From the IMG/VR virus record IMGVR_UViG_3300008267_012518: a DNA stretch of 64,000 bases. The stretch is one strand, 5' to 3'. The translations under genes and the position numbers were made by a program. Source of the stretch: a virus. Shown piece by piece: positions 5,501-56,243 of the stretch; the first letter of the stretch is position 1, and each line of letters begins with the position of its first letter. Below the pieces are notes generated by a model. That model was not told the origin of the DNA and searched no databases. It was given only the letters and a program-made list of their open reading frames with translations.

Positions 5501-5773
5501 ACCAGTAACACCCTGTGATCCGGTAACACCTTGTATTCCTGTAGATCCTTGTGGTCCGGTAGATCCTTGTGACCCATCTATACCAGTAGATCCAGCATCT
5601 CCTACTGGTCCTTGTGGGCCAGTAGGACCCACATCTCCTTGAGGTCCAACTGAAACAGAACCTATTATAGAAAAAAGTTCGTTACCAAACCCATCATAAT
5701 AGGTATCACCTATTACTTGCACTAATCTACCATAAGTTGAGGACACCGTTTGACCGGTTAAACTATATGTCAT
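2537..5773 (-). CDS. Collagen-like (Gly-X-Y) tail-fibre/virion fibre protein
   Basis: About six GXY blocks dominated by GxT-GxQ; CBM5/12-like WQAPPSIYAVGDIVTYNGETWY segment; fibre-type C-terminus (VTLGGNRTLENPTN...TQDGTGSRTL). Confidence 0.85.
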   Translation of the reverse strand: MTYSLTGQTVSSTYGRLVQVIGDTYYDGFGNELFSIIGSVSVGPQGDVGPTGPQGPVGDAGSTGIDGSQGSTGPQGSTGIQGVTGSQGVTGPSAAPSLNIPFILVDNITVTHSSGSYPLVQIIDDLGNNIFPASIIHTSTYSIDINFGATLSGTIIIGGGAGNQGPAGPSGPAGGPQGYQGVTGPQGYQGVTGPLGPTPSLSIVLTQGNTASTSINMLNHEITNLDYIDFYTQSTSISSPGRLYWNDTDGTLNLGLKGGNVNLQIGQENVVRVVNKSGSDLLESEYKVVRIRITTEGGSQGQRLAVVLSQGDNDPDSTTTLGIVTETILNNEEGFITTFGLVNGINTTATSFHGESWSDGDVLYLSSSVPGGITNVIPQAPNHIIIVGYVVYAHQNNGKIFVKVDTGYELKELHDVFYTTPNDGDVLQWSGTNSRWEAKPSTGGTGSGTTGPQGTTGPQGPAGGGTGSGSTGPTGSQGSTGPQGFTGYQGVTGSQGFTGDQGTTGPQGETGPQGSGSQGSTGTQGNTGPQGNTGTQGTTGPQGFTGPQGFQGNTGPQGPQGQKGQSNQFFNYLAITSSTVESYVTGSYFVDGYVAPTGYIIWNNPTQISATALSVSHIDESGDDVDIFLELISAGDKIIIQDRNDSTSYQQWLVNGSLTIVPNTYVEIPVSLVTATGLGYTNFPNNHEVILVISSIGATGPQGPQGFQGSTGFQGTTGPQGSTGLTGSDGPNSVRLSFGSSASSTPSATGSFNVNFGTSGGYSFSSISSISFNSPPSPTGYPTDIYGNIIYNWLVNIFTDYLAPKPITAQISEVGNSSNYGIYRLTSHGIPTPTWNWGLTFVSGGGTLSSGSIYTISELSGGATGSQGSRGATGATGSQGPTGPQGSTGPAGDSGTTPDWYFQGTWQAPPSIYAVGDIVTYNGETWYNNSGGPLSVTPSVANGWDQLSAKGSTGSQGPTGPQGPAGSGGGGGGSITPTVLIDAATISIDITDSNSSIFSVTLGGNRTLENPTNMPTGTDVKYFGVIVTQDGTGSRTLSYDTQYNTGDIDTDLNYTANSRTHLYFMASTGLVELIGKRT
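5191..5252. repeat. Exact 27-nt tandem duplication within collagen gene
   Basis: gtggaccagtcactccttgatatcctt x2 plus a partial copy; encodes GPQGYQGVT repeats. Confidence 0.9.
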
Positions 5774-7730: not shown

Positions 7731-7757
7731 AAACTTTTACTCCCCACCAACTATAAA
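7731..7757 (+). promoter_or_regulatory. Putative phage-sigma promoter AAACTT-N15-TATAAA (SSB gene)
   Basis: aaactt ttactccccaccaac tataaa. Confidence 0.6.
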
Positions 7758-7809: not shown

Positions 7810-8760
7810 ATGGCAAATTTAAATGAAATGGATGATTTATTTGGAGGCAATCTAGACAGTAAAATGGACTTCCTAAATGAAAAGAAAAGTGTAAATGCTG
7901 ATGGTATTTATCGTATTGATCTTACCAAAGCAAAAGACAAAAAGAAAGGATATAAATCTATTATTAGATTTCTACCCAATCTGACCAAAGAAGGAAAAGT
8001 TGGTCAAGCCGCAATTGAAAAAATTGCACATTATGTAGACATCAAAAATCAAAAAGAAATCTCTGGTTGGTTTGACTCAGCTAAGAACTTCAATGAGAAA
8101 TGTCCACTTACTGACCTTTATTACAGTATGGTTAATTCTAAAAACGCAATTCTCCAAGAGAAGGCAAAAAGTCTGAAATACACCAAGAAATACTATTCAT
8201 ATTGTTTGGTTATTGAAGATGAACAACAACCAGAACTAGTCGGTAAAATTATGATTTTCCAATATGGAAAAACTATTAAGGATAAAATCGCAGCTGAGCG
8301 AAATGGTGAAATCACTGGTGTTCCTTGTAACGTATTCGATCTTTCTCAAGGTAAAGATTTTGTAATCCTCGTTAAAGAAATTTCTACTGGTGATGAAAGT
8401 TATCCAGACTATAAGAACTCTATGTTCAAACCAGAAATGACTTCTCTCCCAATCTACAACGAAGAGAAGAGTGTTTTCAAAAATGTACCTGTATCTGATG
8501 GTAAAGTTGACGCTAGGGCTCAAGGTATGGTTAAAGATTTCCTTATGAAGAGGGATCACGACTTAGAAGAATTCGCACCAAAGAAACTTACCGATGAGCA
8601 GTTAGTTAAAGTAAATCAGATCACTGCTTATCTTACTGGTAAATCAAGTGGTAATTCTTTCTCAAATGCACCGAGTTCAGATGATTTTGAACTAGAGGGT
8701 ATGGTCACTTCTGGTACTAAAGCCACAGAAGATGAGGATGATTTTTTCTCTGATTTCTAA
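7810..8760 (+). CDS. Single-stranded DNA-binding protein, T4 gp32-like
   Basis: IIRFLPN, EKCPL, YYSYCLVIEDEQQPELVGKIMIFQYGKTIKDKI, FDLSQGKDF, YPDY motifs; acidic tail EDEDDFFSDF. Confidence 0.85.
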   Translation: MANLNEMDDLFGGNLDSKMDFLNEKKSVNADGIYRIDLTKAKDKKKGYKSIIRFLPNLTKEGKVGQAAIEKIAHYVDIKNQKEISGWFDSAKNFNEKCPLTDLYYSMVNSKNAILQEKAKSLKYTKKYYSYCLVIEDEQQPELVGKIMIFQYGKTIKDKIAAERNGEITGVPCNVFDLSQGKDFVILVKEISTGDESYPDYKNSMFKPEMTSLPIYNEEKSVFKNVPVSDGKVDARAQGMVKDFLMKRDHDLEEFAPKKLTDEQLVKVNQITAYLTGKSSGNSFSNAPSSDDFELEGMVTSGTKATEDEDDFFSDF

Positions 8761-12188: not shown

Positions 12189-12787
12189 TGAGGTTATCAT
12201 CACAAAATTCACAATTCGTATTCAATTTACCATCTGATTTTTTACCTGGTGAAATTATTAGCACATATAAACCAATACTAGAAAAAAATTGGGTCCAATA
12301 TGAAAATGTAATTGATTATCTGAATTCTACGATCAAATCTGTGTCTTACCCAGGATTAAATATCACCACACCCGAACAAACCTTAATACGTGGTAAAAAA
12401 AGATCTTATAAACCAGCAACCAACGTTCAAGACATTTTAACATCTAGAGAAATAGACATAACCTTCCGTTCAGTAGACGCAGATTTAAACTATTGGATTT
12501 TATATGACATATTTATTAAACATTATTTAGATGTAATAAATCTTTATATAAATCCGTTTGTATTGACAGCGGTAGATATATGGAGAGATGCCATCTACAG
12601 AATAAAGTTTTATGAAATAATAGCGATGTCTTTGAGTGAAAATAAATTTGACTATAGTCAACAAAAAGTTAATGCAAAGGATTTCACTATAAAATTCAAA
12701 TTCAATTTTTCTGAGGTTGAATTCCTACTCAACAAATCCAAAGTTCTAGAACTCGGATCAGTTCCGAAGATTATCCAAAGGCTTTGA
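12188..12787 (+). CDS. Tail-tube-fold protein, T4 gp3-like tail completion/terminator
   Basis: TIKSVSYPGLNITTPEQT...IDITFRSVDADLNYWILY...FYEIIAMSLSENKFDYS...FTIKFKF resembles the gp3/gp19 pattern. Confidence 0.6.
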   Translation: MRLSSQNSQFVFNLPSDFLPGEIISTYKPILEKNWVQYENVIDYLNSTIKSVSYPGLNITTPEQTLIRGKKRSYKPATNVQDILTSREIDITFRSVDADLNYWILYDIFIKHYLDVINLYINPFVLTAVDIWRDAIYRIKFYEIIAMSLSENKFDYSQQKVNAKDFTIKFKFNFSEVEFLLNKSKVLELGSVPKIIQRL

Positions 12788-13228
12788 ACCAACCTTGTAT
12801 AACTGCACGTAATCACTACAAATTCCAAAACATTTACTGAAATCATCATCAAAAATTTCTGGTAGTACGGCAATACTATTGATAATTGGTTGTTTACCAG
12901 GGTATACCCACATAAATTTTCGAGAGGTTAGTGTTAGTGTGTCTTCTTGATGCCAGAAAAAGTTCAAATCAAAATTCAGAGACAACAAATGACTAACAAG
13001 TGGTGTATTTTTACAGTGTATCCACAAATTATTTTGTCTCTCTAAAATCCAATCTAAACTTATTGGTGTTTTAGGCTCATCATGACCCAAATAAAGAATA
13101 TCATCAACAATCCATAGATCTATTTCAACATCAAATCCTTGTGACAAGGCATCATCTATATAATCTTGTTGATTTTCTCTATCCGAGTTTCTTCCGTTAG
13201 TATTTCCCCTATGAGATATGTATTTCAT
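12758..13228 (-). CDS. Short GDPD/PLC-like phosphodiesterase
   Basis: ISHRGN, EN, GFDVEIDLW, LYLGHD, LWIHCKN, GICSD motifs. Confidence 0.8.
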   Translation of the reverse strand: MKYISHRGNTNGRNSDRENQQDYIDDALSQGFDVEIDLWIVDDILYLGHDEPKTPISLDWILERQNNLWIHCKNTPLVSHLLSLNFDLNFFWHQEDTLTLTSRKFMWVYPGKQPIINSIAVLPEIFDDDFSKCFGICSDYVQLYKVGSKPLDNLRN

Positions 13229-14457
13229 TAAAAAATTCTATAAGCTAAATCTTCATGAAAATTCTTTACACCCCATTTTTCGATTGCTGCCAAATACTCT
13301 TTTTCAGTAGTGTGTCCATCGATAGATTGTCTCATCGCTCTACCACCAGCTAGTGTGCCCATCGGGTGACCATGCATCGCACCACCAACATTAGCCATCC
13401 AATCATGTGATTTCAGATACTCATTGACGTACTGAACCAATCCTGGATGCATTCCACAACTCAAAGCTGGAACGACATTATACTTCCATAAAACCTCAAG
13501 GGCATCTTTGAGTTCGGTATCATCTTGGTTCATATATCCACCAATCATACCAGCGTGAATTGAATCAACACCGGACCATCCAGCAATCTTACAAAGTACA
13601 GGCCAGTAAATGTGATTTGGAGCACGTTTATCGGTGAAAAACTTATCACCACTTTTCTGAAAATGTATCCAAAGGTTTGGATTTTGTTTTCGAATTGCTC
13701 TAAATACCCCCAATCCACTCCAAACATTTATATGAATTCCGGTTCCACCTTCTTGAGCAACAAAATTAGCTCTTTCGAGAGCATATGGAGAATCACCATT
13801 TATACAAAAGGTATAAATTACATCAGGTGCATTTTTTTGTAACCAGTTAGAAATTAAAGGAACCCTTTGTTTTAAAGAACAGTGGTTTGGATCTCCAAGT
13901 AACTCATCTTCTTTGATAAAGTTGACACCACCATCTACCATCTCCTTGACAGCTTCTAACAGTATTGTTGGTGACATTCCAACCTTTGGTTTGATGATAC
14001 CACCGAAAAACGGTTTTTCATGTGTGTTGGAATATTTTCTAAAACCATCAATACCATACGCAGGTTTCAGTCTAAAACTGTTTTCAATATCTTTTGGTAA
14101 TTCAATATCCAAAACATGACATTGTTCGATTTCTAATATATCAACCTGACCACCAGCAATATGACATAAAATTTGTGAAATACCATCTTCCTCAAGATTG
14201 ATGTTTTCAAAAGGGAAAGCGATTTTTACTATTCCCTCATTCTTGGATTTTAGTACACTCTCATCCTCTAAAATAAAACAAGAATGATCCAAAAACATTT
14301 GGTCGGTCTCCCAAACACTTCTATTGTTTGGATTACCAATGCTTTGACCTATTGCCAAATTCCAAGCGGCATCTCTAAGTGAAGTTTTACCTTTGAGGAA
14401 GTATGTAACTATGAAGTATTTGTCGTAATCTATAATATCAGTAAATATATTGACCAT
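13228..14457 (-). CDS. RuBisCO-like protein (form IV RLP), non-carboxylating
   Basis: GGIIKPKVG, GGVNFIKEDE, IHFQKSG, DSIHAGMIGGY, PALSCGMHPG, GGAMHGHPMG: RuBisCO large-subunit fold with substitutions at the E60, N123, H294, R295 and K334 equivalents. Confidence 0.9.
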   Translation of the reverse strand: MVNIFTDIIDYDKYFIVTYFLKGKTSLRDAAWNLAIGQSIGNPNNRSVWETDQMFLDHSCFILEDESVLKSKNEGIVKIAFPFENINLEEDGISQILCHIAGGQVDILEIEQCHVLDIELPKDIENSFRLKPAYGIDGFRKYSNTHEKPFFGGIIKPKVGMSPTILLEAVKEMVDGGVNFIKEDELLGDPNHCSLKQRVPLISNWLQKNAPDVIYTFCINGDSPYALERANFVAQEGGTGIHINVWSGLGVFRAIRKQNPNLWIHFQKSGDKFFTDKRAPNHIYWPVLCKIAGWSGVDSIHAGMIGGYMNQDDTELKDALEVLWKYNVVPALSCGMHPGLVQYVNEYLKSHDWMANVGGAMHGHPMGTLAGGRAMRQSIDGHTTEKEYLAAIEKWGVKNFHEDLAYRIF

Positions 14458-14471
14458 TTATTTTTTTTATT

Positions 14472-14498
14472 TTTATATTAAAAACCTAGCATAAGTTT
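14472..14498 (-). promoter_or_regulatory. Putative phage-sigma promoter AAACTT-N15-TATAAA (RLP-GDPD)
   Basis: Reverse strand aaactt atgctaggtttttaa tataaa, 14 nt before ATG. Confidence 0.6.
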
Positions 14499-15609
14499 AA
14501 TCTCCATCACTGAGTGATATTTTTTTTGTTTTTGATAGGGCTGAACCAATTACTTGGTGCATGTCATAATATTTATATTCCGCTAATCTTCCACCAAAAA
14601 TAAATTTATTATCATCCATTGATAATTTTTTATATTGATCATAAATTTTATTATTTGTGTCATCATTGATCGGATAATAAGCTTCATTGTTTATCGAAAA
14701 GTCCTGTGGGTATTCTTTTGTAATTATGGTATAATTAGTATTTTTGAATTCGAAGTGTTTGTGTTCGATTATTCTAGTCCAAGGTATGTCTTTATCGGTG
14801 TAATTCACACCAGCCACTCCTTGATAGTTATCTACATCAACTAATTCGTTTACAAACTTGAGACTTCTATATTTTAACTTACCGTACCGGTATCCGTAAA
14901 ACTCATCTATCTTTCCAGTGAAAACTATTTTTTTAGCTATACCATTCCAATAATCTTTACTATTGAAATAGTCAACATTCAATTTAATCTCGATTCCATC
15001 TAATATGTTACTCACCATCTGTGTATATCCACCGATTGGAATTCCTTGGTACAGATCATTAAAATAATTATTATCGTAATTAAATCTGAGTGGTATTCTT
15101 TTTATAATAGATACAGGTAAATTTTTTGGATCCGTACCCCATTGTTTGTAGGTGTATCCGTATATGAGTTTTTCATAGATATCTTTACCAACATTACTTA
15201 GAGCAAACTCCTCAAGATTGTTACAAAATTCAAAATTTATTAAATCTTGATTGATCTTTTTTCTGGCCTCGTTTGGTGTAGTAACCCCCCAAAGACCCTT
15301 GAAAGTGTTCATATTGAAAGGTAGATTATAAAGTTGATCCCCATATCTTGCTAATGGTTCATACCGAAAATTATTGAAACTTATAAATCTGTTTACATAA
15401 TCCCAAATACCTTTGTCAGATGTGTGAAAGATATGTGGTCCGTATTTGTGAACATTTATACCATCCAAATTTTCAGTAAATACATTCCCCCCTATATGAT
15501 TTCTTTTGTCTATAATCAGACAACTTTTACCTCGATCTGTCATCTCTCGAGCAAATACAGCACCAAATAACCCACATCCAACGATCAGATAATCGTATTC
15601 ATATTTCAT
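14497..15609 (-). CDS. glf: UDP-galactopyranose mutase
   Basis: IVGCGLFG FAD motif, HIGGN, HKYGPHIFHT, YQGIPIGGYT, WTRIIEHKHF, GRLAEYKYYDMHQ. Confidence 0.95.
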   Translation of the reverse strand: MKYEYDYLIVGCGLFGAVFAREMTDRGKSCLIIDKRNHIGGNVFTENLDGINVHKYGPHIFHTSDKGIWDYVNRFISFNNFRYEPLARYGDQLYNLPFNMNTFKGLWGVTTPNEARKKINQDLINFEFCNNLEEFALSNVGKDIYEKLIYGYTYKQWGTDPKNLPVSIIKRIPLRFNYDNNYFNDLYQGIPIGGYTQMVSNILDGIEIKLNVDYFNSKDYWNGIAKKIVFTGKIDEFYGYRYGKLKYRSLKFVNELVDVDNYQGVAGVNYTDKDIPWTRIIEHKHFEFKNTNYTIITKEYPQDFSINNEAYYPINDDTNNKIYDQYKKLSMDDNKFIFGGRLAEYKYYDMHQVIGSALSKTKKISLSDGD

Positions 15610-15620
15610 ATATAAAAAAT

Positions 15621-16322
15621 TTAAAATGATTTGATGATATATGCTGTAGGTGCTATGAAATTCAAGTTCTTCACTTTAAGTCCCCTTTCTTTAAGAAATC
15701 TGTCGACACCAATAGACTCGCTCCACTTAGAGTGAGCATATTCATCAAATACTACTATACCACCAATTGAGACATAATCCCAAAGGTTTACTAAAGTGTT
15801 GTAAGTAGGAACTTCTAAATCGAGATCAATGTATAATATTGATATTTTCAAACCAGGATTATCATCAACATATTTTTTTGATGTTATAGATATATCACCT
15901 TTAACAAGTTCGAAATCTGTTTGTTTGAAACCGTGTCCTTTAAGGTTCTGTTCTAAGTATAATTTATAATCTGAATTATGCTCAAAATTTCTTCCTTGGA
16001 AAAGCGTATCCATGGTTTTACGTTGAACCTCATCATTTATTGTTGATAGAAGTTGAAATGTATCAAACATATCAAACCCAACAACTTTCTTTATGCTATT
16101 TGGATTTAACACTTCTTTCAATTTCAGAAAAGTGTAGAGTCCAGATCCCTTGAAAACTCCACATTCTAGTATGTCACCTGTAATATTTTTTACTTTATTA
16201 TAGATAAGTGTTCTGGCAACGAGTTTCTGAAATACTTTTCTATCATCACTAATTATAAAACCGTTAAAATCATCAAAAATTTTTTGGGTTGTTGAAATCA
16301 TCTCTATAGTTTTTATATCCAT
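15621..16322 (-). CDS. TylF/MycF-family sugar O-methyltransferase
   Basis: GDILECGVFKGSG, VVGFDMF, ISILYIDLDL, GGIVVFDEY. Confidence 0.85.
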   Translation of the reverse strand: MDIKTIEMISTTQKIFDDFNGFIISDDRKVFQKLVARTLIYNKVKNITGDILECGVFKGSGLYTFLKLKEVLNPNSIKKVVGFDMFDTFQLLSTINDEVQRKTMDTLFQGRNFEHNSDYKLYLEQNLKGHGFKQTDFELVKGDISITSKKYVDDNPGLKISILYIDLDLEVPTYNTLVNLWDYVSIGGIVVFDEYAHSKWSESIGVDRFLKERGLKVKNLNFIAPTAYIIKSF

Positions 16323-16328
16323 AAATTT

Positions 16329-16649
16329 TCAAATTATATATTTGTCACCGACAATCGAAGGTGATTTTATTACTAAAATATTACAATCGGTCAGAAATAT
16401 AGGATCAGCAATCTCATTTGGTCTTAATATAAAAATATCATCCTTTTTTAATTTACGACCTTGAATGATCATCTTTCCCTTTAGAATAAGGTTAATCTCC
16501 GTTGCTAATTTATGAAAATGGGTTGGCCATTTTTCGCCCTTTTTGTGTGTGAGGATCCCGACTTCAAAATCACCTTGTTTAAAACAAGAAGGTTCGAAGT
16601 CACCAATAAACCAACCTCTGTGAAAATTATTGAGTTTGAATGTTTCCAT
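16329..16649 (-). CDS. Cupin-fold protein
   Basis: GWFIGDF; HFH...TEINLILKG and FILRPNE cupin motifs. Confidence 0.75.
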   Translation of the reverse strand: METFKLNNFHRGWFIGDFEPSCFKQGDFEVGILTHKKGEKWPTHFHKLATEINLILKGKMIIQGRKLKKDDIFILRPNEIADPIFLTDCNILVIKSPSIVGDKYII

Positions 16650-17328
16650 TTTGTAGATATTTTTTTAAATCGTCTGGAGTACCAATAGGAAAGTGTTGAT
16701 TAAAAAGGTATATACCGATTTTTTGATTATTTTTGATTAGATAGTTATATGTTGGTGCAACATAATATTCACCATTTGTTTTGTCTTCATTTTTTACCAT
16801 TTGTTCATAAGATTCAAAAAAATCCGAGGCTTTATTCCAATAATGCAACCCGTTTGTGGCTAAATTAGATATTACTTGTTTTTCCTTCACATCTTTGACT
16901 AAATTATTTTCGTCAATTTGAACATAAGAATTTTTTTGGTGGTTGGATATAAAACATCCAAAACATCCATCAAATTGCCTAGCATATCTGATAAATAAAT
17001 CTAAATTCCAATCTTTTATTATTTGGTCACAGTTTGTTATGATTAATTCTGAATTAGGATCAATCGAATCTTTGGCTAAATAAGCTGTCGAAGCAGGTCC
17101 CTCTGTCGTATAATCGATTTCTATTACTTTCGATCCAAAAGATTGGAAACTATGTCCCTTTCTTCCAATGACTGTTATATCAATTTTTTGATCTACAAAA
17201 TTATTGATTACGTGCTCGATCATATTTCTACCATCCCAAGAAATCAAAGGTTTTGGCTCGATCCACTCAGAATTAATAAATCTAGTCCCCCTACCCGCAG
17301 CTAATATAATTAAATTTATTTTATCCAT
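16627..17328 (-). CDS. Sugar-phosphate nucleotidyltransferase (NTP_transferase family)
   Basis: ILAAGRGTRF, PKPLI, EGPA, ITNCDQ, NGEYYVAPTYN, IGTPDDL. Confidence 0.85.
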   Translation of the reverse strand: MDKINLIILAAGRGTRFINSEWIEPKPLISWDGRNMIEHVINNFVDQKIDITVIGRKGHSFQSFGSKVIEIDYTTEGPASTAYLAKDSIDPNSELIITNCDQIIKDWNLDLFIRYARQFDGCFGCFISNHQKNSYVQIDENNLVKDVKEKQVISNLATNGLHYWNKASDFFESYEQMVKNEDKTNGEYYVAPTYNYLIKNNQKIGIYLFNQHFPIGTPDDLKKYLQNGNIQTQ

Positions 17329-17331
17329 AGT

Positions 17332-18069
17332 TTATCTATAAACACCAATGTGAATTGAACAATGTTCGACTACCAAGTCATTAATTTTCTCTAGGTGAAC
17401 TTTTAAATTAGATTCATCATAACTAGCATATTGGTTGGTCTTAATAATTTCGGGATAATTATCATATACAAGACTATACTTTTTCATTGCTTCTGATGTT
17501 CCAATTGCAAATAAATTTGAACACCCATGCCCATCAGGCCAATCGTATCCTGGATTTACCAAAATTAGTTTGGGATTTTCGTCTATCCGCTTTTTTATAT
17601 TTTCCCAATCAACTATGGTTTTATCCCATTCAACGTCATGATCCATCCTATATTTGATTGCGTATTTATAAGATACATTATTTTCATTTTCATACTGTTC
17701 TTTGACCTCGAATGCTTTTTTTATAGAATAAAACTGTGACCACGATGACCAAACTTTGTTTATGGGATTTCTATATCCTGGTGAAACGCTAGTATTTTTA
17801 TAAAAGTCGGTTTTATCATAATCCTCAATTATGTATTTTTTAGGTTTATATAATTCAACGAATTGTGTCGCGTCATGAACTTTACTTTGCTTATTTTCCC
17901 AACCCATCTGGTCTCCCCAACTACTCAATAATTTATCATGTTGCCAAATATGACCAAATACGTCATATTCAAGCCCATTAAACAAATTTAAAAAATCCTC
18001 ATATCCCTTCTCGACACACCTTGGTTGTCCACTAAAACAAATTCCAAAATCCTTTATAATTTTTTCCAT
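17332..18069 (-). CDS. SGQxR-type putative glycosyltransferase-like protein
   Basis: ICFSGQPR, VFGHIW, SQFYSIK, IKYRMD; paralogous to 20309..20959. Confidence 0.55.
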   Translation of the reverse strand: MEKIIKDFGICFSGQPRCVEKGYEDFLNLFNGLEYDVFGHIWQHDKLLSSWGDQMGWENKQSKVHDATQFVELYKPKKYIIEDYDKTDFYKNTSVSPGYRNPINKVWSSWSQFYSIKKAFEVKEQYENENNVSYKYAIKYRMDHDVEWDKTIVDWENIKKRIDENPKLILVNPGYDWPDGHGCSNLFAIGTSEAMKKYSLVYDNYPEIIKTNQYASYDESNLKVHLEKINDLVVEHCSIHIGVYR

Positions 18070-18074
18070 TAAAT

Positions 18075-18101
18075 CTTATATGAAATATATCATTTGAGTT
18101 T
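18075..18101 (-). promoter_or_regulatory. Putative phage-sigma promoter AAACTC-N15-TATAAG
   Basis: Two mismatches to the consensus, 5 nt before ATG 18069. Confidence 0.4.
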
Positions 18102-18112
18102 TTAAATTTAAA

Positions 18113-18140
18113 AAACTTTTCTCTGATTTATATTTATAAT
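18113..18140 (+). promoter_or_regulatory. Putative phage-sigma promoter AAACTT-N16-TATAAT
   Basis: 13 nt before ATG 18154. Confidence 0.5.
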
Positions 18141-18153
18141 AAATAAAATTATT

Positions 18154-18876
18154 ATGAATTACAATCCAACCCAAAAATATAACTTCAAATTTGAAGTGGA
18201 TCAATTTGGTTTTAATCATTTGGATAAAGATTTTTTTGATCGTGATGAGATTATTCTTATTGAAAAATTCGAAAAATTATGCCAAATAATAAAAATCTAT
18301 GATCAAAAAAAATACAAAATGATTGAATTGGGATGCAATCAATGTTTCTATTCTTTATTCTTTAAATTTATATTAGGTATTAACAATACAAACACTGTTC
18401 TCGTAGAACCATATAAACCTTTCCTAGAGAGGGGTAAGAGAAATTTTCATATCAACGGTCTTGATTGTGAAATAATAAACAAGTGTGTTGGAAGGAAGAA
18501 ATGGCTGGGTACAAGTTCACCAGATTATGAATTCGATGTTGAACTTACTACTTTAAATGAATTGATGTGTGGTGATACTTTCGATATACTCCATTCAGAT
18601 ATTGATGGTAATGAATTATATATGTTACTAGAAAACAAAGATATATTCCAAGAAAAAAAAATAAAAAATATATTTCTTTTGACCCACGGTGGTAGTGTTC
18701 ACTTCAATGAAATGCTTGAAAATGACAGACCAGATACAACACATTATAAATGCAAAGAATTTTTTACAAACACTGAGTATAAATTAATATATGAGTGTGA
18801 AGAGTGGGAAGTTGGTGGTGATTCATTATTGATTTATTCGATCGATGAAAACGTTATATCAAGTTTTCAGAATTGA
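18154..18876 (+). CDS. FkbM-like SAM-dependent methyltransferase
   Basis: MIELGCNQCFYS, VLVEPY, FDILHSDIDGNE, IFLLTH. Confidence 0.7.
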   Translation: MNYNPTQKYNFKFEVDQFGFNHLDKDFFDRDEIILIEKFEKLCQIIKIYDQKKYKMIELGCNQCFYSLFFKFILGINNTNTVLVEPYKPFLERGKRNFHINGLDCEIINKCVGRKKWLGTSSPDYEFDVELTTLNELMCGDTFDILHSDIDGNELYMLLENKDIFQEKKIKNIFLLTHGGSVHFNEMLENDRPDTTHYKCKEFFTNTEYKLIYECEEWEVGGDSLLIYSIDENVISSFQN

Positions 18877-18879
18877 TTT

Positions 18880-18913
18880 ATAGAAAATATGACTACGTAG
18901 TCATATTTTCTAT
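18880..18913. terminator. Perfect 34-bp palindrome between convergent genes (probable bidirectional terminator)
   Basis: atagaaaatatgactac|gtagtcatattttctat. Confidence 0.6.
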
Positions 18914-18923
18914 GGAATTAATA

Positions 18924-20291
18924 TTATTTATAATTTTCTAAAAAATAATTTAGATCTTCTGGTGTACCCAATCCCCACATATTTTCGACATGGTAAGTTT
19001 TTATTTTTTTACCATCATTAATCGCCAGATTATAAACAGGACACACATAAAATTCACCATTTATCCTCATATTCTTTTCAATCATTTCCTCCGAATATTT
19101 AACAAAATCACTACCACGTTTCCAATAATAAAAACCAACGGTTGCTAAATCCGATATTGGGTTTTTTTCCGAAACTTCACTAACATAACCATCTTCACCT
19201 ACTCTAGCGAATGACCACTTTGGGTGAGTTGAAGTAAATGTCACTATACCACCATCCAAATCACACTCATTCATTTTGTAAAAAAAATCGTTGGAATCCC
19301 ACTCTACAAACTGATCCGAATTAGCAAAAAACAATGGTAGGTCTACATTTATAATATCTTTAGATAAAAGAGCACTACAAGCGGCCCCTTCGGTCACACC
19401 ATCAACTTCTACGATTTTACAATTTGGAGTAATTAGGTTTAGTAGTGTTCCTAAATTATATTTTTCCTTATGTGACTTTTGAACAATGTAAATGTAGTTA
19501 GCTTTGATATTCAAATTTTCAACAACAACTTGAATCATGGGTTTATTCCTAACATCAATTAGTGGCTTAGGAAAAGTATACCCAACTTTTTCAAATCTCG
19601 AACCTTGTCCAGCCATGGGTATAATCACATTTAATTTCTCATCAGACCAATAAGGTATTGGATTTTTTTTATCCATCTCCAAAATGTTGATTTTACTCTT
19701 GATGAAATCCGAAGTTATTTCAGATGGTGAATTTATCCTTATAACATTCGATTTACTATTTGAGGCCGCGTACAATCCTGGTGGCGAATCTTCTAAAATT
19801 AAAGTTTCGTTGGGTAAAAAACCGAAGTAGGACATCGCTTTCCAATAAATCTCAGGATGTGGTTTTGGAAATTCAACATCTTCATTTGACAAAAGTAAGT
19901 CAAAGAATTCTATAATACCCAATCTAGATAATGAAGTTAAAACGGTTTTCTTAATACTATTTGAACAAACAGCGATTTTATATTTCTCTGATAACTCAGT
20001 TAAACAATCTATGAGGTTATTGTTAATACTCAAACTTTGTAGTTTTTGTAAGGTGATTTTTTGTTTTTTCTGCCAAATTTCGTCATACTCCGTTACTGGT
20101 AAATTTTTCTCCAGTGTCAAAATTTGTAATTTCTGATTTGTTTTAAGACCATCAAATTTTGACAAATGATCTTCCCAAGATATAGAGTATTTATCACCAA
20201 GTGCCAAATTCAAGGCTTCGTAATGAATCTTTTTAGCATCAACTAAGACACCATCAAGATCAAAAATAATAAATTTAATTTTGTTTTTCAA
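18924..20291 (-). CDS. HAD phosphatase + nucleotidyltransferase fusion
   Basis: N-term FDLDGVLVD, PKPHPEIY, LEDS; C-term IPMAGQGSRF, PKPLI, ANSDQ, NGEFYVCPVYN, LGTPEDL. Confidence 0.9.
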   Translation of the reverse strand: MKNKIKFIIFDLDGVLVDAKKIHYEALNLALGDKYSISWEDHLSKFDGLKTNQKLQILTLEKNLPVTEYDEIWQKKQKITLQKLQSLSINNNLIDCLTELSEKYKIAVCSNSIKKTVLTSLSRLGIIEFFDLLLSNEDVEFPKPHPEIYWKAMSYFGFLPNETLILEDSPPGLYAASNSKSNVIRINSPSEITSDFIKSKINILEMDKKNPIPYWSDEKLNVIIPMAGQGSRFEKVGYTFPKPLIDVRNKPMIQVVVENLNIKANYIYIVQKSHKEKYNLGTLLNLITPNCKIVEVDGVTEGAACSALLSKDIINVDLPLFFANSDQFVEWDSNDFFYKMNECDLDGGIVTFTSTHPKWSFARVGEDGYVSEVSEKNPISDLATVGFYYWKRGSDFVKYSEEMIEKNMRINGEFYVCPVYNLAINDGKKIKTYHVENMWGLGTPEDLNYFLENYK

Positions 20292-20308
20292 TTTTTATTT
20301 TTATTTTT

Positions 20309-20959
20309 TCATAAGACTATTCTACCATCAGATCTGACTAAATCAAAAGTCCTTGGGATTGAATTGTTACCAATATTATGATGGCTCAAATGTTCCGAAA
20401 TTATTCCCTCAGGACACATTTGATTAATCCTTTCTGTTTGGTCATATTCGTCAAAAATATTCGAATAAATGTCCATCAACTCCGAACTTCCGTATGCAAA
20501 CCAATCATTTAATCCACCACAACCACCAGATCTGTTGATTAGGTTTATTCCACCATTTGAAATATCAAAAGATATCCTTTGGTTATACTTCAGATCGTAC
20601 CTCGCTCTGATGCAAACATCATATTTAAAATTATTTAATAATTCATAGTCAACCTTCATTCTATTTGATTCACGTATAGAATAAAACATACTTCTTGTAG
20701 GAACATCAATAGATGGATGATCAAATCGGAAAGATTTTGGCTTCAATGTATTCAAAACGTCAATAATATCATCCATAGAGTATCCCCCAAAATCTGTTGG
20801 ATCATAATTCCAAAAATTTTGGTATTTACTGTTATCATACTTATACCAAGAATGACAAAAAATATCCACGTCGTTATTTTCTAAAATATTTTCAATCAAA
20901 CTTTGTTTCACCAGTGGGAAACTTCTGATTTGTCCAGATAAGCAAAGGGCAATTTTCAT
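20309..20959 (-). CDS. SGQxR-type putative glycosyltransferase-like protein
   Basis: MKIALCLSGQIR, DIFCHSW, SMFYSI, YDVCIRARYD, NDWFAYG. Confidence 0.55.
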   Translation of the reverse strand: MKIALCLSGQIRSFPLVKQSLIENILENNDVDIFCHSWYKYDNSKYQNFWNYDPTDFGGYSMDDIIDVLNTLKPKSFRFDHPSIDVPTRSMFYSIRESNRMKVDYELLNNFKYDVCIRARYDLKYNQRISFDISNGGINLINRSGGCGGLNDWFAYGSSELMDIYSNIFDEYDQTERINQMCPEGIISEHLSHHNIGNNSIPRTFDLVRSDGRIVL

Positions 20960-22869: not shown

Positions 22870-23586
22870 TTATTGTTCTTTTATCATTTTTTTGAATTTG
22901 GTTGCCGACCAACCGTGTTTTCTTGGAATAAAAAATGTATTTATATTTAGTTTCAACCCATTATGGTCTTTACCAATATAATCATCTCCCAAAAAAAGTA
23001 TATCTGGTTTTACATTTTCAGTCAAAGAAATCAATTCACTTTCAGTATTATAAAAAAATACTTCATCAACATATTTTAATGAAGTCAATATTTTTTTTCT
23101 TTCTTCTTTGGAAAGTATTGGTTTGGGCTTACCCCTCTCAATCGAAGGATTATTGTGCAACCCAACCACCAAATACTCACAATTTTTCTTCGCCAATTCA
23201 AACATATGAATATATCCAGGATGAATTACATCAAAAGCGCCTGCTATAAAACCAATTTTGGGATTTGTATTCTTTTTGAAATCTTCAATAGATAAATTTT
23301 TATCATCTATAAAAAAATCAAAAGATGGTTTTCCTAAAATCAATTCATTATATTTTACACCCCACGATTTAAGCTGTGTAGTAGTCAGGTCAAATAAATT
23401 ATTATAAACTAAACTGACATTACCTTTGTAAGTTGTCATCCCTCTAGCCGTAAATATTTTTATATAATGACCCACATCAAACAAATTGTTGACTTTTAAG
23501 ATCATTTCATCATTTGGATAAGATGAGGAATAATTATTTGAGTCTGTACTACAAATAGTGTTATCTAGGTCGAAACAATAAATCAT
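22870..23586 (-). CDS. HAD-like capsule phosphatase + cytidylyltransferase (TagD/HldE-type) fusion
   Basis: CFDLDNTI, FTARG, GKPSFDFFIDDK; then GAFDVIHPGY, LVVGL, YVDEV, GWSAT. Confidence 0.85.
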   Translation of the reverse strand: MIYCFDLDNTICSTDSNNYSSSYPNDEMILKVNNLFDVGHYIKIFTARGMTTYKGNVSLVYNNLFDLTTTQLKSWGVKYNELILGKPSFDFFIDDKNLSIEDFKKNTNPKIGFIAGAFDVIHPGYIHMFELAKKNCEYLVVGLHNNPSIERGKPKPILSKEERKKILTSLKYVDEVFFYNTESELISLTENVKPDILFLGDDYIGKDHNGLKLNINTFFIPRKHGWSATKFKKMIKEQ

Positions 23587-23595
23587 AAAATTGAA

Positions 23596-24576
23596 TTAAT
23601 TAAAATTACCTAGAATAACTGAACCAAGTTTGTCTATGTCAAAATGTAACCTTTTATAACCTCTACCTGTCATAAAATTCTCAACTTCTGTGTGATTTTT
23701 TTCAGTGAACAGTAGTAAAAATCCACCACCACCAGCGCCCACTATTTTACCACCAAGAACGCCAAATAACTCCTTTGTCATTTCATAGGTCATATCAACT
23801 TCCGACACTGATATCTTATCAGAAAGACTCTTTTTCATTTTCCAATATTCGTCTAAGAGTATTCCATACTTCTTAAAGTCTCCAGACTCAAGAATACTCA
23901 ATACCTCATAAGCTTGCTGTTTTATTTTCAAGAGGGTTTCCTCTGAATTACCCTTTAATTGTTTCTGATCTTGTAAAACCTCTGATGCGTCTCTTTTGAC
24001 GTTTGTGTAATAAAGATGGACGTGCGAAAGAAATCTATTAAGCTCACTTTGTGATAAGTTTACCTCTTTTATATCAACGTTTCCATTGGTATCTATATCT
24101 AAGATTTTCAAACCACCAAACGCAGCAATATATTGATCCTGTTTACCAACTGGCTCACCTAACTTATCAATCTCAATATAACATGCCTCTTCTGCCAGAA
24201 CGATTGGTTCACGGTTTAACCTTTTGATTTCTCTAACAACGTTTGATAGACCCACTAAGAAACTACCCGAACTACCAAGACCGGTATTAGAAGGTAGATC
24301 AGCACAGGTGTTGACCTCAAATGAGTTAAACATATTGTGGTGTAAAAATAGTTCTTTAGCTCTATGATTTTTTAAATCTGATGCATTATCAACAATTTCA
24401 ATTTGAGAATACCTAAGTTTAAGGTAATTTTCGAATTCATCAGGTTTCAAAGTTATATAGATGTATTTGTTAATAGCTAGAGATATTACAAATCCTCCGT
24501 GTTTGGAGTAGAAGGATGGTAAGTCGGTACCACCACCAGCAATTGTTATTCTCAAAGGTGTTCTGGAAAGTATCAT
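23596..24576 (-). CDS. hddA: GHMP sugar kinase, D-glycero-D-manno-heptose-7-phosphate kinase-like
   Basis: RTPLRITIAGGGTD, LPSNTGLGSSG, GKQDQY, GGKIVGAGGGGF. Confidence 0.8.
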   Translation of the reverse strand: MILSRTPLRITIAGGGTDLPSFYSKHGGFVISLAINKYIYITLKPDEFENYLKLRYSQIEIVDNASDLKNHRAKELFLHHNMFNSFEVNTCADLPSNTGLGSSGSFLVGLSNVVREIKRLNREPIVLAEEACYIEIDKLGEPVGKQDQYIAAFGGLKILDIDTNGNVDIKEVNLSQSELNRFLSHVHLYYTNVKRDASEVLQDQKQLKGNSEETLLKIKQQAYEVLSILESGDFKKYGILLDEYWKMKKSLSDKISVSEVDMTYEMTKELFGVLGGKIVGAGGGGFLLLFTEKNHTEVENFMTGRGYKRLHFDIDKLGSVILGNFN

Positions 24577-25271
24577 AGTTTATATCCAGCGTTTTTAGCG
24601 TCATCAAAAAACATTTGAACTGTTTCTCTTGAATATTCTGTCAAATCTTTATTAGACAAATTCAATTTTTTTATAAGATCTGGTGTAACAGTAATTATAT
24701 CACATCCAATTCTATCAGCTTCGAAGATATTGTATACTTCTCTAGTACTAGCCCATAAAATCTCATGCTTCGTAGAATCTCTTTTACCTAAAGCATACTC
24801 GATAATTGGTGATGGATTCACACCAGTGTCGGCGATTCGACCGGAAAAAATCGATATCACACTTTCGGTGTCTGAGTTCAATGAATTTAAAACATTATCT
24901 ATTTGTTCTTCAGTAAATACGGCTGTAATATTTAGTTTTATTTTCAGATCACTCATTTCCTTAATCAATTCATAAGTTGGAACACCTTTCGTATTCATAA
25001 CCGGAACTTTCACGTAAATATTTGGTGATATATTTGATAGTTTCATGATCTGAGATTTCATCTCTTGATAATCATCAGCGAAAATTTCAAAGGAAATTGG
25101 TAGATCCTTCACCTGATCAGTCACCTCCTTTATGAATGATAAATAATCTTTTACACCGGATTTCTTCATAAGTGAAGGGTTGGTTGTAAATCCACTCACC
25201 ATTGGATTGTTCTTGTATGTTTCCAATATTTCTGAGATATTAGAACCATCTGAAAAAATTTTTACTCTCAT
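24573..25271 (-). CDS. tal: Transaldolase (short TalC/FSA family)
   Basis: GFTTNPSL, ISFEIF, IYVKVP, LNITAVF, SIFSGRIAD, LWASTRE, GCDIITV. Confidence 0.85.
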   Translation of the reverse strand: MRVKIFSDGSNISEILETYKNNPMVSGFTTNPSLMKKSGVKDYLSFIKEVTDQVKDLPISFEIFADDYQEMKSQIMKLSNISPNIYVKVPVMNTKGVPTYELIKEMSDLKIKLNITAVFTEEQIDNVLNSLNSDTESVISIFSGRIADTGVNPSPIIEYALGKRDSTKHEILWASTREVYNIFEADRIGCDIITVTPDLIKKLNLSNKDLTEYSRETVQMFFDDAKNAGYKL

Positions 25272-25285
25272 ATTAAATATTTTTT

Positions 25286-25999
25286 TTAGGGTTTATAGAA
25301 AAATAACGCGTTTTCAGCGACGTGTGGTACTAAAAATCCAACATTTTTATTAGCGACGGCAGCTGGTCCTCTGTATTCTCTTTCACCAGTCTGTGATTGC
25401 CAATTTCTAAAATCATTAAAATCTTCCATCGCAATCTTTCTAATTTTGTTTGTTTCATCCTCATCGAATATGAAACCATACTCAGAAAATATTTGTTTCC
25501 AGTAGGTAAATGGTTGACAATTCACATGATTGTGACCAGACTGACCCGGTAAAGCGTGTGTCATAATCACACATTTAGACTTATCAAAGTCTTTCATAAA
25601 GTTGTGGACACCTAATTCATCAACGTGTTCAACAAATTCGACCGACCAACACAAATCAAAACTACCCGTAAGATCAGAAGGTCCAGTTGTGTAATCATGT
25701 GCTAAAATTTTTTCAGGAAAGAATGAAACGTCTCTAGCAATCTTAGAACCCTCAACTCCTTGTACCTCTAGACCTAAAAAATCCTTGAAATATTTAAGAT
25801 GGTATCCAAATCCACATCCGATATCTAAAACCGATTTAATATTGTATTTATCTACAATATATTTCCACATTTTCGGACACTCTGTTCCTGGGTCCCCATC
25901 GACATTACAACCACCTAAGTGACCATCGTTAAAACTCTGGTCAAAAAGTAATGATTCATGTTTATATTTTTTTATAGATTCTCTTATAGTATTAATCAT
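25286..25999 (-). CDS. Class I SAM-dependent methyltransferase
   Basis: SVLDIGCGFG, GVEGS, FDLCWSVEFVEH, HALPGQSGHNHVNCQ. Confidence 0.85.
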   Translation of the reverse strand: MINTIRESIKKYKHESLLFDQSFNDGHLGGCNVDGDPGTECPKMWKYIVDKYNIKSVLDIGCGFGYHLKYFKDFLGLEVQGVEGSKIARDVSFFPEKILAHDYTTGPSDLTGSFDLCWSVEFVEHVDELGVHNFMKDFDKSKCVIMTHALPGQSGHNHVNCQPFTYWKQIFSEYGFIFDEDETNKIRKIAMEDFNDFRNWQSQTGEREYRGPAAVANKNVGFLVPHVAENALFFYKP

Positions 26000-26001
26000 A
26001 A

Positions 26002-26574
26002 TTATATTTTTTTATATAGAGCATTTACAACTAGGTGCAATATTACACCCTGCCATTCCTCTGCATGAGGTGTTATCTTTTCTTGGTCAACAACTGGTAT
26101 CAAAACACAACAATCGGATAATTCTTTTGATTTACCACCATCTCTAGACACAACTGATAACTTCATAGATCCAATCTCACTAGCGTATTCAAGACACCTA
26201 ACAAGGTTTAAGGAAACTTTATCGGTACCACCACCAACAGAAAAAATCAGAATAGCATCATTTTCACCAAACTGAGAAACCTTAAGCCAATTTAGATAAG
26301 AAGTTTCCCAACTTTCATCGTTTATTCTAGCGGTAAGTTCAGAAACATTCTCAGAAATTGAATATGATTCAATGTTGAGTATCTTTCTAAAATCATTCAC
26401 AGCATGAGCAGCATTTGCTGCACTCCCACCAACACCAGCGATGAACAATCTTCCTTTGCGATTTTTTAAAACTTGTATGTGATTTATAAAACTTATAATG
26501 TTTTCTTTATCAATCAAATCACATATTTGCTTTATCTGATTTAGGTAGTCACTTACGTAAATATTAAGATCCAT
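26002..26574 (-). CDS. gmhA: Phosphoheptose isomerase (SIS domain)
   Basis: LFIAGVGGSAANAAHAVND, LTARIND, FSVGGG, EEWQGVILH. Confidence 0.75.
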   Translation of the reverse strand: MDLNIYVSDYLNQIKQICDLIDKENIISFINHIQVLKNRKGRLFIAGVGGSAANAAHAVNDFRKILNIESYSISENVSELTARINDESWETSYLNWLKVSQFGENDAILIFSVGGGTDKVSLNLVRCLEYASEIGSMKLSVVSRDGGKSKELSDCCVLIPVVDQEKITPHAEEWQGVILHLVVNALYKKI

Positions 26575-56234: not shown

Positions 56235-56243
56235 TAATATATA
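56235..56243 (+). promoter_or_regulatory. Putative late promoter TAATATATA
   Basis: 20 nt before ATG 56264. Confidence 0.55.

What the first reader, a model, noticed from the sequence alone, without database searches (positions are those of the whole stretch)
12758..20959. RuBisCO-like protein in a phage biosynthetic module (RLP + GDPD + cupin + two nucleotidyltransferase/SGQxR pairs + HAD): candidate pathway for an unknown activated sugar
Seen: a complete form IV RLP keeps the Mg/carbamate core (KPK, K-E-D-E instead of KDDE, IHAG, SCG, GG). It has lost carboxylation residues (HxHR->HFQK, loop-6 K334->Y, E60->G, N123->G). It has its own promoter, is translationally coupled to a GDPD-like gene, and sits beside a cupin, a HAD-NTase and a second NTase. 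Known: characterised RLPs are enolases, isomerases or decarboxylases in catabolic or salvage routes (methionine salvage, tetronate and apionate catabolism). Inference: here the RLP works anabolically, remodelling a sugar phosphate (isomerised, shortened or branched). HAD/GDPD would trim it, the NTases activate it, and the SGQxR proteins transfer it onto a phage glycan. I know of no described RLP pathway in this context.
Basis: partly seen in the sequence, partly recalled or inferred. Interest (0 to 1): 0.9.

Follow-up and report, generated by a model that had tools for sequence, protein, structure and literature searches.

The report
Phage RuBisCO-like sugar-activation cassette
A large uncultured phage carries an intact relative of the CO2-fixing enzyme RuBisCO that cannot fix CO2. 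In viruses, bacteria and archaea this gene sits beside a sugar-activating enzyme, so it probably helps build an unusual activated sugar for a surface glycan, a job never tested for this enzyme family.

Summary
A complete 409-aa RuBisCO-like protein (RLP, 13228-14457, minus strand) keeps the Mg/carbamate core and the P1 phosphate site but lacks the carboxylation residues.

- **Neighbours.** The "SGQxR" proteins fold as GT-A glycosyltransferases.
- **Conservation.** Within 6 genes of the RLP, in 79 viral loci, I found a nucleotidyltransferase in 74, the cupin in 63 and the mini-GDPD in 62. In 48 cellular loci (SAR11, Legionella, candidate-phyla bacteria, DPANN archaea) the counts were 44 for the nucleotidyltransferase and 31 for a GDPD.
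- **Fusions.** RLP-nucleotidyltransferase and nucleotidyltransferase-cupin fusions both exist.
- **Phylogeny.** These RLPs form one clade (support 100) outside the MtnW, OiaX-like and form III-like groups, with an invariant active-site signature.

Best reading: an enolising or isomerising step in a conserved nucleotide-sugar pathway. The substrate is unknown.

Phage RLPs were reported in 2019 (Jaffe et al.) without a function. This scan has already found the same cassette in at least 12 other genomes. The HAD fusion, Glf and the heptose-type genes are not conserved partners of the RLP. The "own promoter" claim is unproven.

The parts
13228..14457 (-). RuBisCO-like protein, 409 aa (P0001). The Mg/carbamate core and P1 phosphate site are kept; the carboxylation residues are lost.
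   Evidence: PF00016 E 1.4e-33. Below all NCBIfam equivalog cut-offs. Residue mapping. Clade of 83 with support 100.
12758..13228 (-). Mini-GDPD, 156 aa. Its start overlaps the RLP stop (TAATG).
   Evidence: phrog_34507. Profile hit to GDPD 7e0v at 1.5e-4, with the HRG/EN/ExD/HD motifs invariant or nearly so. AF2 pLDDT 95.8, with GDPDs as top Foldseek hits. hhalign probability 91% to a full-length Pfam GDPD from DPANN loci. Near the RLP in 62 of 79 viral loci.
16329..16649 (-). Small single-domain cupin, 106 aa, with an HxH...E metal motif.
   Evidence: Profile A1 against the PDB: cupins at 5e-7 to 2e-4. H44, H46 and E51 are invariant. Fused to the C-terminus of the nucleotidyltransferase in giant-virus MAGs (hhalign 99.8%). 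Near the RLP in 63 of 79 viral loci.
16627..17328 (-). Nucleotidyltransferase, 233 aa, of the sugar-1-phosphate type. It is the most constant partner of the RLP.
   Evidence: PF12804 and PF00483. Profile against the PDB: 4evw 3e-32, then Man-1-P, Glc-1-P and GlcNAc-1-P transferases at 1e-11 to 1e-9, with LicC and IspD only at 1e-4. Near the RLP in 74 of 79 viral and 44 of 48 cellular loci. Fused to an RLP in P0137.
15621..16322 (-). TylF/Methyltransf_24-type methyltransferase. A frequent accessory in viral loci.
   Evidence: PF05711 E 4e-10. A methyltransferase lies within 6 genes of the RLP in 45 of 79 viral loci.
14497..15609 (-). UDP-galactopyranose mutase (Glf), inserted between the cupin and the RLP. 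Seen only in this window.
   Evidence: TIGR00031, 396 bits against a cut-off of 304. No Glf in any other locus.
17332..18069 (-). DUF7796/phrog_13607 protein ('SGQxR'), a GT-A-fold glycosyltransferase-like protein.
   Evidence: phrog_13607 E 6e-23. AF2 pLDDT 86.5. Foldseek: B3GalT5 6e-8, B3GNT2, glycogenin TM 0.46. Near the RLP in 35 of 79 viral and 10 of 48 cellular loci.
18154..18876 (+). FkbM-family methyltransferase, on the opposite strand.
   Evidence: TIGR01444 E 2.8e-6, 27.9 bits, below the model's 37.7-bit cut-off. FkbM-type methyltransferases recur in other loci.
18924..20291 (-). Fusion of a HAD domain (beta-phosphoglucomutase-like) with a nucleotidyltransferase, 455 aa.
   Evidence: PF13419 E 5e-29 plus PF00483. 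Its transferase domain groups with the transferases directly upstream of the RLP in SAR11. It replaces the plain transferase before the cupin in L023 and L024.
20309..20959 (-). Second DUF7796 (GT-A-like) protein.
   Evidence: PF25072 E 7.8e-10. phrog_13607.

Best explanation
The RLP is the catalytic core of a small, widely transferred cassette that makes an unusual nucleotide-activated sugar for a surface or virion glycan. The cassette comprises a sugar-1-phosphate-type nucleotidyltransferase, the RLP and a GDPD-like phosphodiesterase. A small cupin is usually present in viruses, and a methyltransferase and a GT-A-like transferase are often present.

Shown here: the gene set, its conservation, the fusions, and the invariant active-site signature.

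Inferred: the RLP binds a phosphorylated keto-sugar through the retained P1 phosphate site and Mg2+/carbamylated-lysine site. It abstracts a proton to form an enediolate and reprotonates it, giving an isomer or epimer, or possibly a C-C rearranged product. The polar pocket that replaces the second phosphate site (K, D, H, Q, Y) would hold a hydroxylated tail rather than a phosphate or a thioether. The cupin would act as an accessory isomerase. The nucleotidyltransferase would cap the product as an NDP-sugar. Methyltransferases would decorate it, and the DUF7796 GT-A proteins would transfer it. The role of the mini-GDPD is the least clear; it may act on a phosphodiester intermediate or edit the product.
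For: 1. Conservation. Within 6 genes of the RLP in 79 viral loci: nucleotidyltransferase 74, cupin 63, mini-GDPD 62, methyltransferase 45, DUF7796 35. In 48 cellular loci: nucleotidyltransferase 44, any GDPD 31.
2. Fusions. P0137 is an RLP-nucleotidyltransferase fusion. The giant-virus transferase carries the cupin at its C-terminus.
3. One isofunctional clade. Support 100, 83 leaves. The active-site signature is invariant from phages to Legionellales at 32-55% overall identity.
4. K175, K177, K201, D203, E204, H327, S379, G381, G403 and G404 are kept. E60, N123, H294, R295, H298 and K334 are replaced.
5. The transferase profile is much nearer to sugar-1-phosphate transferases (1e-11) than to alcohol-phosphate ones (1e-4).
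6. DUF7796 has a GT-A fold.
7. The surrounding genes are glycan genes throughout: SDRs, DegT aminotransferases, C- and O-methyltransferases, GT2.
Against: - No substrate or product is known, and no kinase or other enzyme supplying the keto-sugar phosphate is conserved in the cassette.
- RuBisCO-type sites act on open-chain 2-keto-1-phosphates, whereas sugar-1-phosphate transferases need an anomeric phosphate. The link between the two steps is unexplained.
- The recurring GDPD, and the LicD beside the RLP in Legionellales, fit phosphodiester chemistry better than glycosyl transfer.
- The cupin, methyltransferase and DUF7796 are missing from most cellular loci.
Confidence: 0.6

Rival explanations
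1. The cassette makes an NDP-activated phospho-alcohol (of the CDP-ribitol, CDP-glycerol or CDP-choline type). The RLP product keeps its primary phosphate, the transferase makes NDP-X, and X-phosphate is attached to a glycan through a phosphodiester. The GDPD-like enzyme would make, move or trim that bond.
For: - All characterised RLP products are primary phosphate esters (established knowledge of MtnW, the R. rubrum RLP and OiaX), and the P1 site is retained.
- A LicD phospho-alcohol transferase sits directly beside RLP-NT in 4 Legionellales loci.
- A GDPD, mini or full-length, is the second most constant partner.
- TagD-like CTP_transf_like genes occur in 16 loci.
- LicC-type enzymes share the same transferase fold.
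Against: - The transferase profile matches sugar-1-phosphate enzymes about 7 orders of magnitude better than LicC, IspD or inositol-phosphate enzymes.
- DUF7796 is GT-A-like.
- The nucleotidyltransferase-cupin and HAD(mutase-like)-nucleotidyltransferase fusions resemble hexose-1-phosphate routes.
- LicD is confined to Legionellales and is divergently transcribed from the RLP.
Confidence: 0.2
2. The RLP is an auxiliary metabolic gene for salvage (methionine, 5'-deoxynucleoside or nucleotide salvage), and merely lies next to glycan genes.
For: Characterised RLPs and form III RuBisCO work in salvage routes. NCBIfam gives partial scores to the rubisco_III, MtnW and OiaX models.
Against: - All scores are far below their cut-offs.
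- The clade lies outside the MtnW, OiaX-like and form III-like groups.
- No IF-2B/MtnA-type isomerase is present in any of 130 loci.
- The partner set is a nucleotidyltransferase, GDPD and cupin, with fusions.
- The thioether-type and second-phosphate pockets are replaced by polar residues.
Confidence: 0.05
3. The RLP is a true but divergent carboxylase/oxygenase, or a non-catalytic scaffold.
For: The lysine that carries the carbamate in RuBisCO and the Mg ligands are present.
Against: - E60, N123, H294 and K334 are all replaced, and invariantly so. That pattern argues against carboxylation.
- Strict invariance of about 30 pocket residues at 32-55% overall identity argues against a non-catalytic role.
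Confidence: 0.03

Closest known systems
'Form IV-like' RuBisCO-related proteins of phages and Beckwithbacteria (Jaffe, Castelle, Dupont and Banfield 2019, Mol Biol Evol, PMC6389311)
   Same: Divergent RLPs on IMG/VR myovirus-type contigs and in Beckwithbacteria, branching outside the other RLPs, with partly changed key residues. My clade includes a Beckwithbacteria MAG copy (L096, 48% identity) and 120 IMG/VR contigs.
   Different: That paper left the function open and discussed carbon metabolism and gene transfer. It did not describe the nucleotidyltransferase/cupin/GDPD cassette, the fusions, or the spread to SAR11, Legionella, DPANN archaea and giant-virus MAGs. I did not compare against their sequences directly.
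DK-MTP-1P enolase (MtnW/YkrW) and the Rhodospirillum rubrum RLP with its cupin partner (methionine salvage and the MTA-isoprenoid shunt)
   Same: The RuBisCO fold, a carbamylated-lysine/Mg2+ enolisation site and a retained P1 phosphate site. In R. rubrum a cupin acts next to the RLP (recalled from the literature, not tested here).
   Different: Below the MtnW cut-offs (110 and 86 bits against 409 and 514). Outside the MtnW group, which contains P0248. No mtnA, mtnB or mtnK-type neighbours. The distal pocket is polar.
OiaX/OiaT RLPs of D-apiose catabolism (Carter et al. 2018, as cited in PMC6389311)
   Same: RLPs acting on a branched keto-acid phosphate. They show that the fold can carry out decarboxylation and C-C chemistry on sugar-derived phosphates.
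   Different: 119 bits against a cut-off of 700. The OiaX-like representative P0252 lies outside the clade. The context here is anabolic and glycan-related, not a catabolic operon.
Bifunctional type II phosphomannose isomerase / GDP-mannose pyrophosphorylase (ManC/AlgA type)
   Same: A nucleotidyltransferase followed by a cupin: adjacent genes in phages and a single fused protein in giant-virus MAGs. The cupin profile weakly matches a small protein deposited as 'mannose-6-phosphate isomerase' (7zvm, 1.5e-4).
   Different: Pfam gave only a weak, sub-threshold hit unrelated to cupins, and no PMI family, for the cupin. The transferase's nearest structure is the uncharacterised 4evw. An RLP and a GDPD-like protein are extra partners that ManC systems lack.

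Membership tests
RuBisCO large-subunit superfamily | N-terminal and TIM-barrel catalytic domains (PF02788 + PF00016) above Pfam's gathering scores | tested here: met
   116.9 bits against 30.1, and 28.3 bits against 20.7.
Bona fide RuBisCO (forms I-III) | Carboxylation residues E60, N123, H294 and K334, and the second-phosphate residues R295 and H298 | tested here: not met
   Replaced by G, G, Q, Y, K and D, invariantly across the clade. rubisco_III scores 157 bits against a cut-off of 497.
DK-MTP-1P enolase (MtnW) | Reaches the NCBIfam equivalog cut-off and groups with MtnW | tested here: not met
   110 bits against 409 and 86 bits against 514. P0248, which passes NF007095, lies outside the clade.
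3-oxo-isoapionate-4-phosphate decarboxylase (OiaX) | Reaches the NF042437 cut-off | tested here: not met
   119 bits against 700.
'Form IV-like' phage/Beckwithbacteria RLP clade (Jaffe et al. 2019) | Monophyletic group of phage and Beckwithbacteria RLPs, separate from the other RLPs | tested here: met
   A clade of 83 with support 100 holds the window's RLP, IMG/VR phage copies and Beckwithbacteria L096.
Glycerophosphodiester phosphodiesterase (GDPD) for the 156-aa protein | Catalytic motifs HRG, EN, ExD and HD, and a GDPD barrel fold | tested here: met
   The motifs are invariant or nearly so. Profile hit to 7e0v at 1.5e-4. The top Foldseek hits are all GDPDs, with TMq 0.53-0.60 and E 2.7e-3.
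Glycerophosphodiester phosphodiesterase (GDPD) for the 156-aa protein | Pfam PF03009 match and a full-length (about 240 aa) barrel | tested here: not met
   No Pfam hit in any of 40 members. The protein is 156 aa and only the N-terminal ~50 residues align by sequence.
Cupin superfamily for the 106-aa protein | Beta-barrel with an HxH...E metal motif | tested here: met
   H44, H46 and E51 are invariant. PDB cupins hit at 5e-7 to 2e-4. No structure was modelled.
GT-A glycosyltransferases for DUF7796 | GT-A Rossmann-like fold with an acidic metal-binding (DxD-type) motif | tested here: inconclusive
   Fold match to GT31, GT8 and GT6 enzymes (E 6e-8, TM 0.39-0.46). D135, R141 and D143 are conserved, but I did not map them onto a DxD position.
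Type II PMI-GMP (ManC) | Transferase domain plus a PF01050-type PMI cupin | tested here: not met
   The transferase-cupin order and fusion are present. The cupin has no cupin or PMI Pfam family.

The most novel reading that the evidence does not exclude
This RLP clade carries out a reaction new to the RuBisCO superfamily in an anabolic setting. It would be a cofactor-free, enediolate-based epimerisation, carbonyl shift or C-C rearrangement of a sugar phosphate that feeds a dedicated nucleotidyltransferase. The result would be a so far undescribed activated sugar, or sugar-phosphate substituent, used on surface glycans. Its carriers include SAR11, Legionella, candidate-phyla bacteria, DPANN archaea, large phages and giant viruses.
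Probability: 0.5. Interest if true: 0.85.

Novelty: new variant of a known kind. Interest (0 to 1): 0.7.

Why it matters
Every characterised RuBisCO-like protein works in salvage or catabolism. A clade wired to a sugar-activating enzyme in glycan loci would give the fold a biosynthetic role.

It would also point to an unknown sugar, or sugar-phosphate decoration, on some of the most abundant marine bacteria (SAR11), on Legionella, on ultra-small archaea and bacteria, and on large phages and giant viruses.

The cassette is small, at three to five genes, and occurs in culturable Legionella species. The question can therefore be tested directly by heterologous expression and LC-MS/NMR. It also warns against reading 'RuBisCO form IV' hits in viral or microbial metagenomes as carbon-fixation potential.

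Tried and rejected
- **RLP with its nucleotidyltransferase (complex prediction).** No verdict (score 0.01). This is no evidence either way.
- **GenBank phages.** No DNA or protein match to the RLP, so no isolate is available for comparison.
- **Pfam.** It misses the mini-GDPD in all 40 members and gives the cupin only a weak hit, below threshold and unrelated to cupins.
- **WavE against DUF7796.** Not related (hhalign probability 3%).
- **LicD.** A profile search over all loci found it only in 4 Legionellales loci.
- **Supplying enzymes.** IF-2B/MtnA-type isomerase: none in any locus. GHMP kinase, transaldolase, SIS and Glf are not conserved with the RLP, so the heptose-type genes in this window form a separate sub-pathway.
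- **Legionella neighbours.** The unknown genes beside the Legionella RLP gave nothing in PDB or Atlas searches.
- **Promoters.** The sigma-70 scan is at chance level.
- **Major capsid protein.** A Gp23 search of the record found nothing, but the controls did not ring either, so this is uninformative.
- **Literature.** Searches for an RLP-glycan or RLP-nucleotide-sugar link found nothing.

Full report
**Setting.** The window is bases 63271-127270 of a 178-kb IMG/VR virus record, estimated 78% complete, with about 31% G+C. It encodes a gp32-like single-strand-binding protein, a collagen-repeat protein, tail proteins and a ClpB-like ATPase. The gp32-like protein is 68% identical to those of 634-642-kb uncultured phages. 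From about 12.7 to 36 kb, a run of minus-strand genes is almost entirely glycan biosynthesis.

**Observation.** The finding's block contains ten genes. In minus-strand order they are:
- DUF7796 (20959-20309)
- a HAD-nucleotidyltransferase fusion (20291-18924)
- an FkbM methyltransferase on the plus strand (18154-18876)
- a second DUF7796 (18069-17332)
- a nucleotidyltransferase (17328-16627)
- a 106-aa protein (16649-16329)
- a TylF-like methyltransferase (16322-15621)
- UDP-galactopyranose mutase (15609-14497)
- the RLP (14457-13228)
- a 156-aa protein (13228-12758)

The RLP stop and the next gene's start overlap as TAATG.

The RLP matches both RuBisCO large-chain domains but is far below every NCBIfam equivalog cut-off:

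| Model | Score (bits) | Cut-off (bits) |
|---|---|---|
| rubisco_III | 157 | 497 |
| OiaX | 119 | 700 |
| MtnW (two models) | 110 / 86 | 409 / 514 |

(All.)

Kept:
- K175-P-K177
- K201-E-D203-E204
- H327 (IHAG)
- S379-C-G381
- G403-G404

Changed: E60 to G, N123 to G, H294 to Q, R295 to K, H298 to D, and K334 to Y.

**The two small proteins.** Pfam shows neither family, but both calls hold.
- *Cupin.* A 33-sequence profile of the 106-aa protein hits cupin domains in the PDB (5e-7 to 2e-4). H44, H46 and E51 are invariant.
- *GDPD-like.* A 40-sequence profile of the 156-aa protein hits a GDPD at 1.5e-4 over the catalytic N-terminus. The HRG, EN, ExD and HD motifs are invariant or nearly so. Its AF2 model (pLDDT 95.8) has GDPDs as all its top Foldseek hits, with TM 0.53-0.60 and modest E-values. 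It aligns with a full-length Pfam GDPD from archaeal loci (hhalign probability 91%).

The 'SGQxR' DUF7796 protein folds with pLDDT 86.5 as a GT-A glycosyltransferase-like domain.

The 'own promoter' is not supported. Sigma-70-like sites occur at chance frequency. I can only point to a near-match to the T4 late motif just before the start and an exact TATAAATA 113 nt upstream.

**Is the neighbourhood conserved?** More than 2,600 homologues exist in metagenomes, 120 on IMG/VR contigs including giant-virus MAGs, and 50 loci in cellular genomes. None is in GenBank phages. I called ORFs, clustered them and counted partners within 6 genes of the RLP:

| Partner | Viral loci (n = 79) | Cellular loci (n = 48) |
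|---|---|---|
| Nucleotidyltransferase | 74 | 44 |
| Cupin | 63 | 13 |
| GDPD (mini; cellular count includes full-length) | 62 | 31 |
| Methyltransferase | 45 | 6 |
| DUF7796 | 35 | 10 |

- The cellular loci include a complete Pelagibacter genome, other SAR11, three Legionella species and Beckwithbacteria. They also include Saccharibacteria, Woese-, Nano- and Micrarchaeota, Verrucomicrobia, Planctomycetes, Nonomuraea and Azospirillum.
- The usual phage order is transferase, cupin, RLP, (methyltransferase), mini-GDPD, DUF7796. In this window Glf and a methyltransferase are inserted between the cupin and the RLP.
- P0137 is an RLP-transferase fusion.
- The 352-aa transferase of giant-virus MAGs carries the cupin as its C-terminal domain (hhalign 99.8%).
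- Glf, the GHMP kinase, the transaldolase and the SIS protein of this window are not conserved with the RLP. No IF-2B/MtnA-type isomerase occurs in any locus.

**Phylogeny and signature.** I built a FastTree tree of 162 superfamily members. All cassette-linked RLPs plus 20 metagenomic representatives form one clade of 83 (support 100) on a long branch. Outside it lie a member that passes the MtnW model, OiaX-like sequences and form III-like sequences.

About 30 pocket positions are invariant across viral, SAR11/DPANN and Legionellales members, which are only 32-55% identical overall. They include the substitutions listed above and the clade-specific H242, N244, Q104, M304 and C334. This pattern points to one conserved reaction.

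**Partner enzyme.** The transferases fall into four context-linked subtypes:
- before the cupin
- HAD-fused, or directly before the RLP in SAR11
- after the RLP, the type fused in P0137
- paired with a GDPD

All subtypes share the same distinctive motifs. The profile's nearest structure is the uncharacterised 4evw (3e-32). Next come mannose-1-P, glucose-1-P and GlcNAc-1-P transferases (1e-11 to 1e-9). LicC, IspD and inositol-phosphate enzymes score only about 1e-4.

**Mechanism.** What is shown is a conserved transferase-RLP-GDPD-like set, usually joined by a cupin in viruses, with a fixed catalytic signature, lying in glycan loci.

What is inferred:
- The RLP uses its carbamylated lysine and Mg2+ site to enolise a phosphorylated keto-sugar held by the P1 site.
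- The former second-phosphate and CO2-stabilising positions are now K, D, H, Q and Y. They form a polar pocket suited to a hydroxylated tail.
- The product is activated by the transferase, often methylated, and transferred by GT-A-like proteins.

One speculative link deserves a test. Known RuBisCO-superfamily substrates derive from aldose-1-phosphates through 1-phospho-aldose/ketose isomerisation (ribose-1,5-bisphosphate, methylthioribose-1-phosphate). This is established knowledge of those pathways. A ketose-1-phosphate to aldose-1-phosphate step, perhaps by the cupin, would connect RLP chemistry with a sugar-1-phosphate transferase.

The main rival is a phospho-alcohol donor of the CDP-ribitol type that ends in a phosphodiester-linked decoration. 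It is favoured by the GDPD association and by LicD beside the RLP in Legionellales. It is disfavoured by the transferase's affinities and by the GT-A fold. Salvage, carboxylase and non-catalytic readings are poorly supported.

**Known or new.** Phage RLPs ('form IV-like', with Beckwithbacteria) were reported by Jaffe et al. 2019, who left the function open. I found no paper linking an RLP to nucleotide-sugar or glycan synthesis.

Earlier agents of this scan reached the same cassette reading on at least 12 other genomes. I re-derived those points here. I added:
- the invariant signature table
- the transferase subtypes
- the full-length GDPD and LicD contexts
- the two fold models

**Verdict.** The feature is real. 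I class it as a new functional variant of a known superfamily. It is of high interest, but its chemistry is unresolved.

Noticed in passing
window 7810-8760 (+): The gp32-like single-strand-binding protein is 68% identical to those of 634-642-kb uncultured phages (LR756502.1, LR745206.1), and only about 28% identical to cyanophage SSBs. The 178-kb record may therefore be a fragment or a smaller relative of that huge-phage lineage. Two exact TATAAATA motifs lie just upstream, at 7752 and 7784.
   Followed up: partly
window 22870-26574 (-): A separate heptose-type gene set: CTP_transf_like, a GHMP kinase, a transaldolase/F6P-aldolase family protein, a methyltransferase and a weak SIS-domain protein. 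None is conserved with the RLP. A phage-encoded transaldolase inside a glycan operon is unusual.
   Followed up: partly
P0204 (583 aa, metagenomic representative): A TIR domain fused to the N-terminus of a RuBisCO-like protein, 28% identical to the window's RLP. It was not placed in the tree. It may be a defence-type fusion.
   Followed up: no
P0172, P0174 (726 and 742 aa): Fusions of an IF-2B-family isomerase with a form III-like RuBisCO. They lie outside the clade studied here.
   Followed up: no
window 2537-5773 (-) and 37029-39140 (-): A 1078-aa collagen-triple-helix-repeat protein and a 703-aa ClpB-like double AAA+ ATPase encoded by the phage.
   Followed up: no
L127, L129, L130, L131 (Legionellales): Beside RLP-NT lie a LicD transferase and a 113-aa carboxymuconolactone-decarboxylase-family protein. 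Several conserved proteins with no family also lie there (147, 328 and 336 aa).
   Followed up: partly
window, whole: The T4 late-promoter motif TATAAATA occurs 22 times against 11.3 expected; 2 of 100 shuffles reach this count. Copies lie just upstream of several genes, for example at 18131-18138 (-) before the DUF7796/NT/cupin genes and at 56240 (+).
   Followed up: no
L083 (contig of a 'Saprospirales' MAG): A 64-kb contig binned as a bacterial MAG has the same phage gene order as IMG/VR loci L017-L035 (SSB, tail-region genes, RLP cassette). It is probably a phage contig mis-binned into the MAG.
   Followed up: no
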